Below are positions 58,601 to 61,600 of a stretch of DNA of 64,000 nt, piece by piece; the stretch's first letter is position 1, and each line of letters opens with the position of its first letter. The stretch is from Escherichia coli O157:H7 (GTDB taxonomy: Bacteria; Pseudomonadota; Gammaproteobacteria; Enterobacterales; Enterobacteriaceae). The stretch is from the NCBI RefSeq assembly GCF_013167455.1, contig NZ_CP038328.1. One strand, 5' to 3'. Made by a program: the position numbers.

Positions 58601-61600
58601 TGGCGTTCTATCAGGGCAATTTTCAGGAGGCGGTACTGTGAGTGAATTAGCTATCAGGCTTCAATTGTCGCTGGCATTCGCATCAAAGGAGAATGAGATG
58701 ACCACTTTTACAAAAGAGCAGTTAATCAGTCATGTTAGTGAAAATGTAAAGGCGATGAAATTTGCAGTAAAACAGACAGCATTCAAAAATTCTCTCGAGG
58801 CAATTGAGTTGGATTTAGCACTGGCCCTTGTTGCTCAGGCTTCGCTGGAAGCAGAGCCCGTGCTTTATATGAATCGATTTACCGGAAAGACATTCTCACT
58901 GGAAGAGCAACCCGGTGCTGATAAGGAACCGGAAATATACGTGCCGCTATATGCTGCCCCGCCAGACAGCGCCGCCATGCTTCAGGCTGGAAACTTTCGG
59001 GAAAAAAAGGGTTCGTCAACCAATAATTTTCGGGAAATCTCGGAAACGTCAACCAACTATCCGGTAACTCTGGATGATTGGATAAGCTGTAGTGAGCGAA
59101 TGCCGGATGATGGTCAGCACGTAATTATTTTATGTGATGGCGCATTCGTTCTTTATGCGCAATATCGAGACGGTGAGTTTTTTGATGTAGTCCGTAATGG
59201 TGATGAATTTTTCGAAACACAGAGCCGCAATGTAACCGACTGGATGCCGCTACCAGAACCGCCGCAGGAGGTGCGCCAATGATCTGGCCTGAAGCCTTTG
59301 CAATTACAGGCGTTGCTATAGCTATTGATTTTTTAGTATATGTTATTTGTCGGTGGGGGTAAAAACGTTCGCCGGGATTCACACCAAAGGAGGGAATATG
59401 TCGGATGATATTTCACTGGCAATGGAAGGTGCGCTGGCTGTTATTGCTGTTGTGGGCGTTTACTGCCTGGTTGTGTTTTTGATGGATCGACTAGGGAACT
59501 GAATTCATTACGATATGGGAATTCCCATATCGGGTAAAAACGGTTTGCGGTAAAGCGAGAGTTAAGTAGAATTGCTGCGGGTGCTTGAGGCTGTCTGCCT
59601 CGGGCATGCCACCGTAAGGCAGACAGAGAAAAGCCCCAGTTAACATTACGCGTCCTGCAAGACGCCTAACATTAATCTGAGGCCAATTTCATGCTAGACA
59701 CATGTAGGTTAGCCTCTTACGCGCCGAAAGGCAAGGAGAAGCAGGCTATGAAGCAGCAAAAGGCGATGTTAATCGCCCTGATCGTCATCTGTATTACCGT
59801 CATAGTGACGGCACTGGTAACGAGGAAAGACCTCTGCGAGGTACGAATCCGAACCGGCCAGACGGAGGTCGCTGTCTTCACAGCTTACGAACCTGAGGAG
59901 TAAGAGACCCGGCGAGGGAGAAATCCCTCGCCACCTCTGATGAATCAGGCATCCTCAACGCACCCGCACTTAACCCGCTTCGGCGGGTTTTGTTTTTTCC
60001 TGGCATTCTGGTTTACAATTCGCACGCCAGCCTGAACAACTGGCACCTGCTGCGCCAGCAGAGACAACCGATGGCGCACGATACCAAATTATACAATTCT
60101 GATGATTCTGCCGTCTTTGCCAGCAGGCGCGGACGGTGTTTTTACGCATTCAAATCTGACTGGTACCAGCATCCCCCATGCACTGAAGAACAGGCCGAAT
60201 GGCTCATTCAGTGTTACCGCAGGCGCGGATGCGAGGTTAAAAAAGCCCTTAGCCTCGACTACCGTCACTGGATAATCTCCGTCAGGCTCCCTTACTCCGA
60301 ACGGCCACCGCGTCCGTCCCGCACATTCCAGCAACGGATCTGGAGGTAATGTGCGGGTATTACTTCGACCTGTTCTGGTACCGGAACTCGGTCTGGTTAT
60401 CGTTAAGCCAGGCCGTGAATCAATGTCAGCATTCCATAACGGCAGAATACTGGTGGAGCCGGAACCAAAAAGCATGCGAGCTCTGCCGTCCGGGGTTGTA
60501 CCTGCCGTTCACCAGCCGCTGGCGGAAGATAAATCACTACTGCCATTTTTCAGCGATGAGCGGGTGATCCGTGCTGCGGGTGGCGCTGGTGCACTGTCTG
60601 ACTGGTTATTACGTCACGTGAAATCCTGCCAGTGGCTACACGGTGATTATCATCACAGCGAAACCGTCATTCACCGTTACGGTACCGGCGCGATGGTGTT
60701 GTGCTGGCACTGCGACAACCAGCTGCGGGAGCAGACATCTGATTCACTGGATCAACTTGCTCAACAGAATCTGGCCGCCTGGATGATTGACATCATCCGT
60801 CACGCAATGAATGGCGCACAGGAGCGTGAATTATCTCTGGCTGAATTATCCTGGTGGGCGGTCCGCAATCAGGTGGCGGACGCGCTACCGGAAGCGGTAT
60901 TACGTCGTTCGCTGGGGTTGCGTGCGGAAAAAATCCGCTCCGTATACCGTGAAAGCGACATCATACCGGGAGAACAGACCGCCACCAGCATACTGAAGCA
61001 GCGCACAAAAAATATTGCGCTACCGCCTCACACCCACCAGCAACAGAACCCACCACAGGAAAAGACGGTGGTCAGCATTGCCGTTGATCTGGAGTCTCCG
61101 GAATCCTTCATGAAACGACCTAAACGTCGCCGCTGGGTAAATGAGAAATACACACGCTGGGTAAAGACACAGCCGTGTGCGTGTTGTGGTAAGCCAGCGG
61201 ACGATCCTCATCATCTGATTGGTCATGGTCAGGGCGGAATGGGAACAAAATCCCACGATATTTTCACGCTACCGCTGTGTCGGGAGCATCACAACGAGCT
61301 TCATGCGGATCCGCTGGCGTTCGAAGAAAAGCATGGTTCCCAGGTTGATTTAATTTTTCGTTTTCTTGATCACGCCTTTGCAACCGGCGTGCTCGGGTAA
61401 AAGAGGTTACTGATGCGTATAGAGTTTGTTTTGCCTTACCCGCCGACGGTGAACACCTACTGGCGACGTCGTGGCAGCACATATTTTGTATCAAAAGCCG
61501 GTGAGCGTTATCGCCGGGATGTGGCACTTATTGTTCGCCAGCAGCGGCTGAAATTAAACCTGTCCGGAAGGCTGGTGATAAAGATTATTGCAGAGCCACC

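What the first reader, a model, noticed from the sequence alone, without database searches (positions are those of the whole stretch)
59640..59998. hok-type type I toxin locus without an obvious relBE partner
A 51-aa Hok/Gef-family toxin is encoded with an in-frame upstream extension from ATG 59691 and a strong terminator. In K-12 the corresponding hokD follows relBE as I recall, whereas here the upstream neighbours are the DUF551 gene and the two small peptides. Whether an antisense Sok-like RNA is present in 59,640-59,750 cannot be decided by eye.
Basis: partly seen in the sequence, partly recalled or inferred. Interest (0 to 1): 0.4.

Follow-up and report, generated by a model that had tools for sequence, protein, structure and literature searches.

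The report
Complete hok/sok toxin-antitoxin locus in prophage
This is an ordinary, fully equipped hok/mok/sok type I toxin-antitoxin cassette in an E. coli O157:H7 lambdoid prophage: its antidote is the antisense RNA Sok, not relBE, and the K-12 relBE-hokD arrangement is a truncated derivative.

Summary
A 51-aa Hok/Gef toxin (59748-59903, Pfam 2.4e-23) has an in-frame 70-aa extension from ATG 59691 and a strong terminator (59972-59998). The extension is the mok leader frame. The question left open, whether a Sok antisense RNA exists, is answered yes at sequence level. Rfam's sok/hok-leader model scores 116.9 bits. By homology to K-12 sokC and to the tested sokW of prophage Sp5, Sok runs on the minus strand from 59699 to about 59623. 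Its promoter is TTGCCT-17 nt-TAACCT, and that -10 is the one whose mutation abolished sokW. Folding reproduces the plasmid R1 switch: tac/fbi end-pairing in full-length mRNA, then tac/ucb and an exposed Sok-target hairpin after 3' trimming. The missing relBE is not an anomaly. K-12 hokD matches only from the hok Shine-Dalgarno (59734) onward and has lost its promoter, leader, mok start and Sok. The locus is 100% identical in many O157:H7 genomes and RefSeq calls its CDS hokD, so it is already known and of low interest. One side observation may be new. A 22-nt patch (59684-59705: Sok 5' tail, mok codons 2-5) diverges about ten times faster than the rest of the locus across phage-borne copies.

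The parts
59544..59572 (+). Inferred hok/mok mRNA promoter: -35 TTTGCG (59544-59549), 17-nt spacer, -10 TAGAAT (59567-59572), then 6 nt to the G at 59579.
   Evidence: The position matches the TATAAT-6 nt-GGGTGC arrangement of K-12 hokC. TAGAAT is present in 64 and TACAAT in 7 of the retrieved homologs. The generic promoter scan did not report it because its thresholds are stricter. No transcription start was mapped here.
59579..59998 (+). Full-length hok/mok mRNA, about 420 nt, from the conserved 5' end GGGUGCUUGAGG to the terminator T-run.
   Evidence: Rfam model position 1 aligns to 59579. The MFE is -176.7 kcal/mol with z = -7.1 against shuffles.
59579..59590 (+). tac element (translational activator) at the 5' end of the mRNA.
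   Evidence: It pairs with 59953-59965 in the full-length fold and with 59631-59637 in the 3'-truncated fold. The element is defined in R1 in PMC9841398.
59631..59639 (+). ucb (anti-SD of mok).
   Evidence: Positions 59633-59639 pair with the mok SD region 59677-59683 in the full-length fold. Positions 59631-59637 pair with tac in the truncated fold.
59623..59699 (-). Predicted Sok antisense RNA, about 77 nt: 5' single-stranded tail 59699-59685, long hairpin 59684-59634, U-rich 3' tail CUUUUCUCU.
   Evidence: The ends were transferred by homology from the annotated K-12 sokC. The fold is -33.9 kcal/mol with z = -5.35. In all 29 variants the hairpin is 7-14 kcal/mol more stable on the antisense strand than on the sense strand. 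The sokW Northern probe YO-592 corresponds to 59671-59700. No transcript was observed here.
59706..59734 (-). Sok promoter: -35 TTGCCT (59734-59729), 17-nt spacer, -10 TAACCT (59711-59706), start at about G59699.
   Evidence: It has the same hexamers as sokW of Sp5. The 'pro-less' primers YO-421/422 replace AGGTTA (TAACCT on the minus strand), and that mutation removed protection. TAACCT or TAATCT occurs in 75 homologs and TTGCCT or TTGACC in 73. The generic scan missed it.
59679..59682 (+). mok Shine-Dalgarno GAGG, 8 nt before ATG 59691.
   Evidence: Read from the sequence. It is invariant in 69 of 69 homologs.
59691..59903 (+). mok leader reading frame, 70 codons, in frame and co-terminal with hok.
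   Evidence: ORF list. K-12 mokC and hokC are also co-terminal. The mok ATG is conserved in 76 retrieved sequences. In 14 of 69 homologs mok is out of frame with hok. This fits the R1 result that translation of mok matters rather than the Mok product (PMC9841398).
59679..59716 (+). Sok-target hairpin of the refolded (truncated) mRNA: mok SD paired to dcb GCCUC (59712-59716), mok AUG in the upper stem, apical loop 59694-59700.
   Evidence: Truncated-mRNA folds. All 15 sequence variants fold into the same architecture at -10.7 to -15.8 kcal/mol. There is no double-sided covariation with a fixed register.
59684..59705 (.). Hypervariable patch: Sok 5' tail, mok start, codons 2-5 and the target loop.
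   Evidence: Column entropy reaches 1.9 bits at 59694-59697, against about 0 in the flanks. Mean pairwise divergence over 59684-59703 is 0.325, against 0.031 in the Sok hairpin and the hok CDS. Pairs with 1-2 differences in the other 371 nt differ at 7-9 of the 22 patch positions.
59735..59738 (+). hok Shine-Dalgarno GGAG within AGGAGAAGCAGGCT.
   Evidence: Read from the sequence. AGGAGAAGCAGGCT is present in 65 homologs. Homology with K-12 hokD begins here, at 59734.
59748..59903 (+). hok toxin gene, 51 aa: MKQQKAMLIALIVICITVIVTALVTRKDLCEVRIRTGQTEVAVFTAYEPEE.
   Evidence: Pfam HOK_GEF 2.4e-23. RefSeq names this CDS HokD in identical O157:H7 genomes. It differs from K-12 HokD at one residue, I16 here and L16 in K-12.
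59911..59932 (+). 3'-UTR stem-loop GGCGAGGGA-GAAA-UCCCUCGCC, a candidate road-block for 3' trimming.
   Evidence: It is present in all folds. Its role is inferred only by analogy with R1 (PMC1635323 figure legend).
59953..59965 (+). fbi element (fold-back inhibition), complementary to tac.
   Evidence: 12 base pairs with 59579-59590 in the full-length MFE structure.
59972..59998 (+). Intrinsic terminator of the hok mRNA.
   Evidence: 7-bp stem with 5 GC pairs, loop of 4, followed by TTGTTTTTTC.

Best explanation
The locus is a complete, apparently intact hok/mok/sok type I toxin-antitoxin cassette in the early region of a Qin-like lambdoid prophage of E. coli O157:H7. It is the full-length counterpart of K-12 hokD and a ~92%-identical paralog of the tested hokW-sokW of prophage Sp5.

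Inferred mechanism, following the R1 paradigm:
- A weak promoter (59544-59572) makes a ~420-nt mRNA.
- The 5' tac (59579-59590) pairs with the 3' fbi (59953-59965), and ucb (59633-59639) sequesters the mok SD, so the full-length RNA is neither translated nor bound by Sok.
- Slow 3' trimming removes fbi. tac then pairs with ucb, and the mok SD and AUG move into a hairpin (59679-59716) with an exposed loop.
- Ribosomes translating mok (from 59691) open the hok start (59748), and Hok, a 51-aa inner-membrane toxin, is made.
- Sok normally prevents this. It is a ~77-nt unstable antisense RNA from a constitutive promoter (TTGCCT/TAACCT, minus strand 59734-59706). Its 5' tail (59699-59685) docks on the target loop, blocks mok translation and triggers duplex cleavage.
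- When Sok synthesis stops (loss of the element, or prophage induction as shown for Sp5), Hok is produced.

Shown here: every sequence element, its conservation, and the alternative folds in silico. Inferred: transcription of both RNAs, 3' processing, toxicity and the biological role.
For: - **Toxin:** Pfam HOK_GEF 2.4e-23.
- **Leader and Sok region:** Rfam RF01794 gives 116.9 bits over the full model, 59579-59753.
- **Sok ends:** transferred from the annotated K-12 sokC, which overlaps the mokC start by 9 nt.
- **Sok fold:** -33.9 kcal/mol, z = -5.35. The hairpin is 7-14 kcal/mol more stable on the antisense strand in 29 of 29 variants.
- **Sok promoter:** its hexamers are identical to those of sokW. 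Mutating that -10 abolished protection in Sp5, and sokW was detected by Northern with a probe covering the homologous 30 nt (PMC8621323).
- **Promoter conservation:** the hexamers, both start codons and both SDs are conserved across about 75 phage-borne homologs.
- **Conformational switch:** the full-length fold shows tac/fbi and ucb/SDmok pairing. The truncated fold shows tac/ucb and SDmok/dcb pairing, as described for R1 (PMC9841398; PMC1635323).
- **Distribution:** the locus is 100% identical in many O157:H7 genomes and matches 4732 of 5426 complete E. coli genomes. Phage records annotate it as MokW, HokD or gef.
- **Toxicity of relatives:** the K-12 HokD coding sequence is toxic when expressed (bioRxiv 10.1101/2025.08.07.668861).
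Against: - No expression data exist for this copy.
- The generic sigma-70 scan reports neither the hok nor the Sok promoter. The Sok -10 matches the consensus at only 3 of 6 positions.
- The target hairpin has no double-sided covariation, and tac could not vary in my sample because it was the search pattern.
- Chromosomal hokA, hokB and hokC loci were reported unable to mediate post-segregational killing (cited), so an intact sequence does not guarantee activity.
- The biological role in this prophage (maintenance, lysis timing or phage exclusion) is open.
Confidence: 0.88

Rival explanations
1. The locus is a structurally intact but physiologically silent relic. Like the K-12 chromosomal hok loci, it is carried along with a decaying prophage, and Hok is never produced at consequential levels.
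For: Chromosomal hokA, hokB and hokC were reported not to mediate post-segregational killing or respond to rifampicin (bioRxiv 10.1101/2025.08.07.668861). In one identical-locus strain the surrounding prophage carries IS elements and pseudogenes.
Against: Every regulatory element is intact and there is no IS insertion or truncation. The locus apart from the patch is under strong constraint: divergence is 0.03 in the Sok hairpin and the hok CDS. The 92%-identical hokW-sokW is functional and affects phage release (PMC8621323).
Confidence: 0.2
2. hok is expressed only by read-through from the upstream prophage early operon (DUF551 and the small ORFs), with no functional antisense RNA.
For: All upstream genes are on the same strand, and only a weak terminator-like site (59453-59469) lies between them and hok. 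The generic scan finds no minus-strand promoter in 59700-59760.
Against: The Sok promoter hexamers, start site, hairpin and U-tail are conserved and identical or nearly so to those of the validated sokW and the annotated sokC. The antisense-strand bias in hairpin stability argues that the minus-strand RNA is the selected structure. Read-through on induction may occur in addition and would not exclude Sok.
Confidence: 0.04
3. hok here belongs to a type II operon of the K-12 relBEF kind, and its relBE partner has merely moved elsewhere in the prophage.
For: K-12 relB-relE-hokD are co-transcribed (PMC3598666). A pair that NCBI labels RelB/RelE-family lies at 54018-54489 in the same prophage.
Against: That pair is on the opposite strand, 5.2 kb away. 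By Pfam it is PaaA2/ParE-type, and it has no BLASTP similarity to K-12 RelE. K-12 hokD lacks everything upstream of the hok SD, so the K-12 fusion is the derived state. About 75 phage homologs carry the complete leader, mok and Sok elements.
Confidence: 0.02

Closest known systems
hokW-sokW of Sakai prophage 5 (Stx2 phage) in E. coli O157:H7 (Takada et al. 2021, PMC8621323)
   Same: The locus is about 92% identical over 416 nt (H34). It has the same 51-aa Hok type, the same 70-codon mok frame, the same Sok promoter hexamers TTGCCT/TAACCT, the same extended Sok hairpin and the same tac sequence. It is prophage-borne in the same serotype.
   Different: The Sok 5' tail and mok start patch differs at 6 of 22 positions: ATGCTAGAC here and ATGCTGAAC in Sp5. 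The context also differs. This copy lies between DUF551 and DUF968/RusA/Q in the early region, while hokW lies near the right end of the Sp5 provirus. This copy has not been tested experimentally.
hok/mok/sok (parB) of plasmid R1, the type I TA paradigm
   Same: It has the same set of elements: tac, fbi, ucb, dcb, a mok leader, Sok with a single-stranded 5' tail plus terminator hairpin, and an Rfam RF01794 match (PMC9841398, PMC1635323).
   Different: The toxin sequence is distant: HokW, the close paralog, is 44% identical to R1 Hok. Sok is predicted at ~77 nt against 64 nt in R1, because of a 17-nt GC-rich insertion at the top of the hairpin. The R1 system is plasmid-borne with a shown role in post-segregational killing.
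hokD (relF) of K-12 cryptic prophage Qin
   Same: The toxin gene is orthologous: one amino-acid difference, identical 3' UTR, fbi and terminator, and the same downstream neighbours (92-aa ORF, DUF968 ydfU, Q). RefSeq names the O157 CDS hokD.
   Different: In K-12 the relE 3' end replaces everything upstream of 59734: promoter, tac, ucb, mok start, Sok gene and Sok -35. K-12 hokD is expressed as the third gene of relBEF, and K-12 also has rem inserted downstream.
hokC/mokC/sokC (gef) of K-12
   Same: The 5' end GGGUGCUUGAGGCUGUCUG is the same, mok is in frame and co-terminal with hok, and Sok overlaps the mok start by 9 nt with its 3' end in the AGAGAAAAG run.
   Different: sokC is 59 nt and lacks the extended apical stem. 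Its presumed -10 is poorer than TAACCT. The K-12 locus is flanked by IS186.

Membership tests
hok/mok/sok type I toxin-antitoxin family | A small hydrophobic Hok/Gef-family toxin ORF of about 50 aa | tested here: met
   Pfam PF01848 gives E 2.4e-23 and 81.9 bits against a cutoff of 22. The 51-aa ORF is 59748-59903.
hok/mok/sok type I toxin-antitoxin family | A mok leader reading frame with its own SD that starts upstream of hok and overlaps it | tested here: met
   ATG 59691 is preceded by GAGG at 59679-59682, and the 70 codons are co-terminal with hok. K-12 mokC/hokC has the same layout. The ATG and SD are conserved in homologs.
hok/mok/sok type I toxin-antitoxin family | A cis-encoded antisense Sok gene opposite the mok translation-initiation region, with its own promoter and terminator hairpin | tested here: met
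   The minus-strand promoter is TTGCCT-17 nt-TAACCT (59734-59706). The hairpin plus U-tail folds at -33.9 kcal/mol, z = -5.35. The ends are homologous to annotated sokC, and the -10 is identical to the mutationally validated sokW -10. This is met at sequence level only.
hok/mok/sok type I toxin-antitoxin family | Long-range 5'-3' pairing (tac/fbi) that closes the full-length mRNA | tested here: met
   Positions 59579-59590 pair with 59953-59965 in the MFE structure of the 420-nt RNA.
hok/mok/sok type I toxin-antitoxin family | Alternative pairings (ucb/SDmok in the closed form; tac/ucb and SDmok/dcb in the open form) after 3' truncation | tested here: met
   Both conformations come out as MFE structures of the full-length and truncated RNAs. 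This is in silico only, and a covariation test on the target hairpin gave no signal.
hok/mok/sok type I toxin-antitoxin family | A match to the curated covariance model of the hok leader / sok region (Rfam RF01794) | tested here: met
   116.9 bits against a gathering score of 59, E 5.9e-26, full model 1-157. The model matches the sense (hok mRNA) strand.
hok/mok/sok type I toxin-antitoxin family | Sok RNA is actually transcribed and neutralises Hok toxicity | not testable with these tools
   This is shown only for the 92%-identical paralog hokW-sokW (PMC8621323). K-12 HokD toxicity is cited.
relBEF-type operon (K-12 Qin) | hok gene immediately downstream of relB-relE on the same strand, and co-transcribed with them | tested here: not met
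   The upstream neighbours are DUF551 and two small ORFs. The only RelB/RelE-labelled pair is 5.2 kb away on the opposite strand, is PaaA2/ParE-type and is unrelated to K-12 RelE by BLASTP.

The most novel reading that the evidence does not exclude
The 22-nt patch 59684-59705 may be a rapidly switching specificity determinant. It covers the Sok 5' tail, mok codons 2-5 and the apical loop of the target hairpin. Because Sok is cis-encoded, any change is automatically complementary in both partners. Discrete patch types could therefore define mutually orthogonal hok/sok classes among otherwise near-identical prophage copies, by analogy with how antisense-RNA loops are understood (from general knowledge, not checked here) to set plasmid incompatibility groups. 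The evidence is at least 8 types, divergence of 0.325 against 0.03-0.04 elsewhere, including hok third-codon positions, and type switches between loci that differ at 1-2 of 371 other positions. The positions match the R1 recognition elements (PMC1635323). I found no description of this in the literature I could search, and the latest Hok survey states that it did not analyse Sok or Mok. Against a strict orthogonality model, 3 of 10 genomes with several copies carry the same type in all of them.
Probability: 0.4. Interest if true: 0.45.

Novelty: already known. Interest (0 to 1): 0.15.

Why it matters
For the finding as posed, it matters little. It corrects a textbook-derived expectation: relBE-hokD adjacency is a peculiarity of K-12, not the normal state. 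It also shows that O157:H7 prophages carry the full hok/mok/sok cassette that K-12 Qin has lost. Such cassettes are relevant to prophage stability and to lysis timing on induction, since the Sp5 paralog doubles phage release. O157:H7 genomes hold several copies. If the hypervariable Sok-tail patch really sets specificity classes, it would explain how many near-identical hok/sok copies coexist in one genome. It would also give a simple natural system for studying how antisense-RNA specificity evolves.

Tried and rejected
- **Promoter scan:** the generic sigma-70 scan found no promoter for hok or Sok. I rejected this as evidence of absence, because the scan needs at least 4 of 6 matches in each hexamer and the validated sokW -10 (TAACCT) would also fail.
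- **Covariation on the Sok-target hairpin:** there were no double-sided changes. The base stem is invariant and the upper stem shifts register between types. Support for the hairpin therefore rests on thermodynamics and conservation only.
- **tac/fbi covariation:** this could not be tested, because tac was the exact search pattern.
- **Within-genome exclusivity of patch types:** 7 of 10 multi-copy genomes differ, but 3 carry identical types. A strict orthogonality requirement is not supported.
- **relBE partner hypothesis:** rejected.
- **Context from strain PV15-279:** its annotation is not collinear with the window downstream of Q, where the window has three tRNAs, so I did not use it beyond the locus.
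- **Chance hits:** about 15-25 of the 94 unique 14-mer hits in viral contigs were unrelated sequences, and I filtered them out by identity.
- **A flawed query:** one tblastn query (the DUF551 C-terminus) was in the wrong frame, and I ignore its result.
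Full report
**What is at the coordinates.** The sequence and ORF list confirm a 51-aa ORF at 59748-59903: MKQQKAMLIALIVICITVIVTALVTRKDLCEVRIRTGQTEVAVFTAYEPEE. It lies inside a 70-aa ORF that starts at ATG 59691 and shares the same stop codon. Pfam assigns it to HOK_GEF (E 2.4e-23). A terminator follows: a 7-bp stem with 5 GC pairs at 59972-59989, then TTGTTTTTTC. Upstream on the same strand lie a DUF551 gene (58638-59282) and two small hydrophobic ORFs (59279-59362 and 59398-59502). Downstream lie a 92-aa ORF, then DUF968, RusA and antiterminator Q genes.

**Where the window comes from.** The 551 nt around the locus are 100% identical to many E. coli O157:H7 chromosomes. 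Related sequence occurs in 4732 of 5426 complete E. coli genomes, with a median of 2 and up to 11 places per genome. RefSeq annotates the CDS as 'type I toxin-antitoxin system toxin HokD' inside a lambdoid prophage that also carries dicB, ydfC and a cI/cro-like region. Rfam finds DicF at 52682-52733, so this is a Qin-like prophage. Related copies in 78 phage records are annotated MokW, HokD toxin, gef or RelF.

**Is there a Sok?** Four lines of evidence say yes at sequence level.

- Rfam RF01794 ('sok') hits 59579-59753 at 116.9 bits (gathering score 59, E 5.9e-26), covering the whole model. The hit is on the plus strand and the model ends at the hok AUG. It therefore describes the hok mRNA leader that contains the Sok gene in antisense. 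It is strong evidence of homology but is not itself evidence of an antisense transcript.
- K-12 has an annotated sokC (16952-17010) that overlaps the mokC start by 9 nt and runs about 50 nt upstream. Aligning the hokC leader with the window places the equivalent Sok on the minus strand from G59699 to about 59623.
- Upstream of that start the minus strand reads TTGCCT (59734-59729), then 17 nt, then TAACCT (59711-59706), then 6 nt to the start.
- In the hokW-sokW study of Sakai prophage 5, the locus is about 92% identical. The 'promoter-less' primers replace exactly AGGTTA, which is TAACCT on the Sok strand, and this abolished protection. The sokW Northern probe covers the 30 nt homologous to 59671-59700 (PMC8621323).

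The predicted 77-nt RNA has a ~15-nt 5' tail, a long hairpin and a CUUUUCUCU tail. It folds at -33.9 kcal/mol with z = -5.35. Relative to the Rfam consensus and to sokC, the hairpin carries a 17-nt GC-rich apical extension. Across 29 distinct Sok variants from phage contigs, the hairpin is -28 to -36 kcal/mol on the Sok strand. It is only -19 to -23 kcal/mol on the sense strand, because of G-U pairs. That asymmetry argues that the minus-strand RNA is the selected structure. The generic promoter scan found nothing here, but its thresholds would also reject the validated sokW promoter.

**The rest of the hok machinery.**

- The mRNA 5' end GGGUGCUUGAGG (59579) is preceded by TAGAAT (59567-59572) at the same spacing as TATAAT in hokC.
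- Folding the 420-nt full-length RNA gives an MFE structure (-176.7 kcal/mol, z = -7.1). In it the 5' end 59579-59590 pairs with 59953-59965 (tac/fbi), and 59633-59639 (ucb) sequesters the mok SD at 59677-59683.
- Removing the 3' end up to fbi switches the MFE structure. tac then pairs with ucb (59631-59637), and the mok SD pairs with GCCUC at 59712-59716 (dcb). This forms a hairpin with the mok AUG in its stem and a loop at 59694-59700.
- This is the closed-to-open switch described for plasmid R1 (PMC9841398). There the Sok 5' tail first recognises a loop present only in the refolded mRNA (PMC1635323).

K-12 mokC is also co-terminal with hokC.

**The relBE question.** Aligning K-12 relE-hokD-rem with the window shows near-identity from 59734 (the hok SD) to the terminator. 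Upstream of that point there is no homology, and K-12 has the 3' end of relE there. K-12 hokD has thus lost its promoter, tac, ucb, mok start and the Sok gene including its -35. It is expressed as the third gene of relBEF (PMC3598666). The O157 arrangement is the complete one and the K-12 arrangement is derived. The prophage in the window does carry a type II pair at 54018-54489 on the minus strand, which NCBI models label RelB/RelE-family. By Pfam it is PaaA2 plus ParE, and its toxin has no BLASTP similarity to K-12 RelE. It is 5.2 kb away on the other strand and has no evident connection to hok.

**Comparative sample.** An exact search for the tac 14-mer in viral contigs returned 120 loci. 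After de-duplication and filtering, 69 unique homologs remained. The following are conserved:

- hok -10: TAGAAT in 64 and TACAAT in 7.
- Sok -10: TAACCT in 56 and TAATCT in 19.
- Sok -35: TTGCCT in 56 and TTGACC in 17.
- Both start codons and both SDs.

The Hok protein is nearly invariant. In 14 of 69 homologs mok is out of frame with hok. One type has a 2-nt deletion, so that mok stops at a TGA overlapping the hok ATG. This fits the R1 conclusion that translation of mok up to the hok start matters, not the Mok peptide.

**Side observation: a hypervariable patch.** Column entropy along the locus is below 0.2 bits almost everywhere but peaks sharply at 59684-59705. It reaches 1.7-1.9 bits at 59694-59697, the four bases after the mok ATG. 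These positions are Sok nucleotides 3-6 and the target loop.

- Mean pairwise divergence is 0.325 in 59684-59703. It is 0.031 in the Sok hairpin, 0.031 in the hok CDS and 0.043 at hok third-codon positions.
- Pairs of loci that differ at only 1-2 of the other 371 positions differ at 7-9 of the 22 patch positions.
- There are at least 8 discrete types. The window has ATGCTAGAC and Sp5 hokW has ATGCTGAAC.
- All types still fold into the same target hairpin, but a fixed-register covariation count shows no compensatory pairs.
- In 7 of 10 source genomes with several copies the types differ, and in 3 they are identical. Strict within-genome exclusion is therefore not supported.

The patch coincides with the recognition elements defined in R1, so specificity diversification is a reasonable but untested reading. 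The most recent Hok survey states that it did not analyse Sok or Mok.

**Verdict.** The locus is a complete hok/mok/sok type I toxin-antitoxin cassette. It is the intact counterpart of K-12 hokD and a paralog of the experimentally characterised hokW-sokW. It is already annotated in RefSeq, phage records and Rfam. The worry about a missing relBE partner rests on a K-12 peculiarity, and the open question about Sok is answered positively at sequence level. Transcription, processing, toxicity and the role in this prophage remain inferred. For Sp5, Sok disappears and HokW appears on RecA-dependent induction and phage release doubles. The same may apply here, because the locus lies in the early operon on the same strand as the replication and Q genes, but this is inference. 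Novelty is 'already known' and interest is low. The hypervariable recognition patch is the only element that might deserve follow-up.

Noticed in passing
window 59684-59705 (and homologous positions in L004-L125): A hypervariable 22-nt patch covers the Sok 5' tail, mok codons 2-5 and the target-hairpin loop. Entropy reaches 1.9 bits. Divergence is 0.325 over 59684-59703, against about 0.03 in the rest of the locus. There are at least 8 discrete types, and the type switches between loci that are otherwise identical at 369-370 of 371 positions. It may be a specificity determinant. Co-resident copies are not always of different type.
   Followed up: partly
homologs of window 59691-59750, e.g. L015, L076, L082: In 14 of 69 homologs mok is not in frame with hok. 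One common type has a 2-nt deletion after the mok ATG, so mok ends at a TGA overlapping the hok ATG (ATGA coupling). The Mok peptide sequence therefore seems dispensable.
   Followed up: partly
window 59579-59753: The Rfam family called 'sok' (RF01794) matches the sense strand and ends at the hok AUG. It models the hok mRNA leader rather than the Sok transcript, so the strand of a hit should not be read as the strand of the antitoxin RNA.
   Followed up: yes
window 54018-54944, minus strand: This is a probable three-gene type II module: a ParE-family toxin (54018-54296), a PaaA2 'stability determinant' antitoxin (54298-54489) and an upstream ORF with weak DicA-repressor similarity (54510-54881). 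RefSeq/NCBIfam label the pair RelB/RelE-family, but the toxin has no BLASTP similarity to K-12 RelE. From memory it resembles the paaR-paaA-parE systems described in O157:H7; I did not check this.
   Followed up: partly
window 59886-59889 (Tyr47 codon TAC in GCUUACGAACC): The Tyr47 codon of hok sits in a UACG motif that is conserved in 72 retrieved homologs. A preprint says that hokC, hokD and hokE mRNAs, like hokB, are A-to-I edited by TadA at a Tyr codon that becomes the second cysteine. Editing here would recode Tyr47 to Cys. The structural context was not examined.
   Followed up: no
window 59279-59362 and 59398-59502: Two small hydrophobic ORFs (27 and 34 aa, each apparently a single transmembrane segment) lie directly upstream of hok on the same strand. 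Similar peptides occur upstream of hok in 44 and 20 of 93 related phage loci. The Sp5 hokW-sokW clone began at the homolog of the first one (primer YO-432). Their function is unknown.
   Followed up: partly
window 52682-52733 (-), 62669-62918 (+), 63692-63864 (+): Other RNA genes are present in the prophage. DicF sRNA scores 76.7 bits. Three tRNAs lie just downstream of the Q gene: Met-CAT, Arg-TCG and Arg-TCT. An STnc100-family sRNA match scores 101.8 bits.
   Followed up: no
window 59998-60050 versus K-12 L002: K-12 Qin has the rem gene (about 400 nt) inserted between the hokD terminator and the 92-aa ORF upstream of ydfU. The window lacks rem and goes directly from the hok terminator to that ORF (60071-60349), which has no Pfam or NCBIfam match. 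That ORF follows hok in 63 of 81 related loci.
   Followed up: partly
NZ_AP018488.1 2170862-2171017 (L126 40763-40918): In strain PV15-279 the neighbouring prophage carries a second Hok/Gef gene in the same DUF551 ... hok ... DUF968-RusA context. This shows tandem prophages each with its own hok cassette. That strain is not collinear with the window downstream of Q.
   Followed up: no
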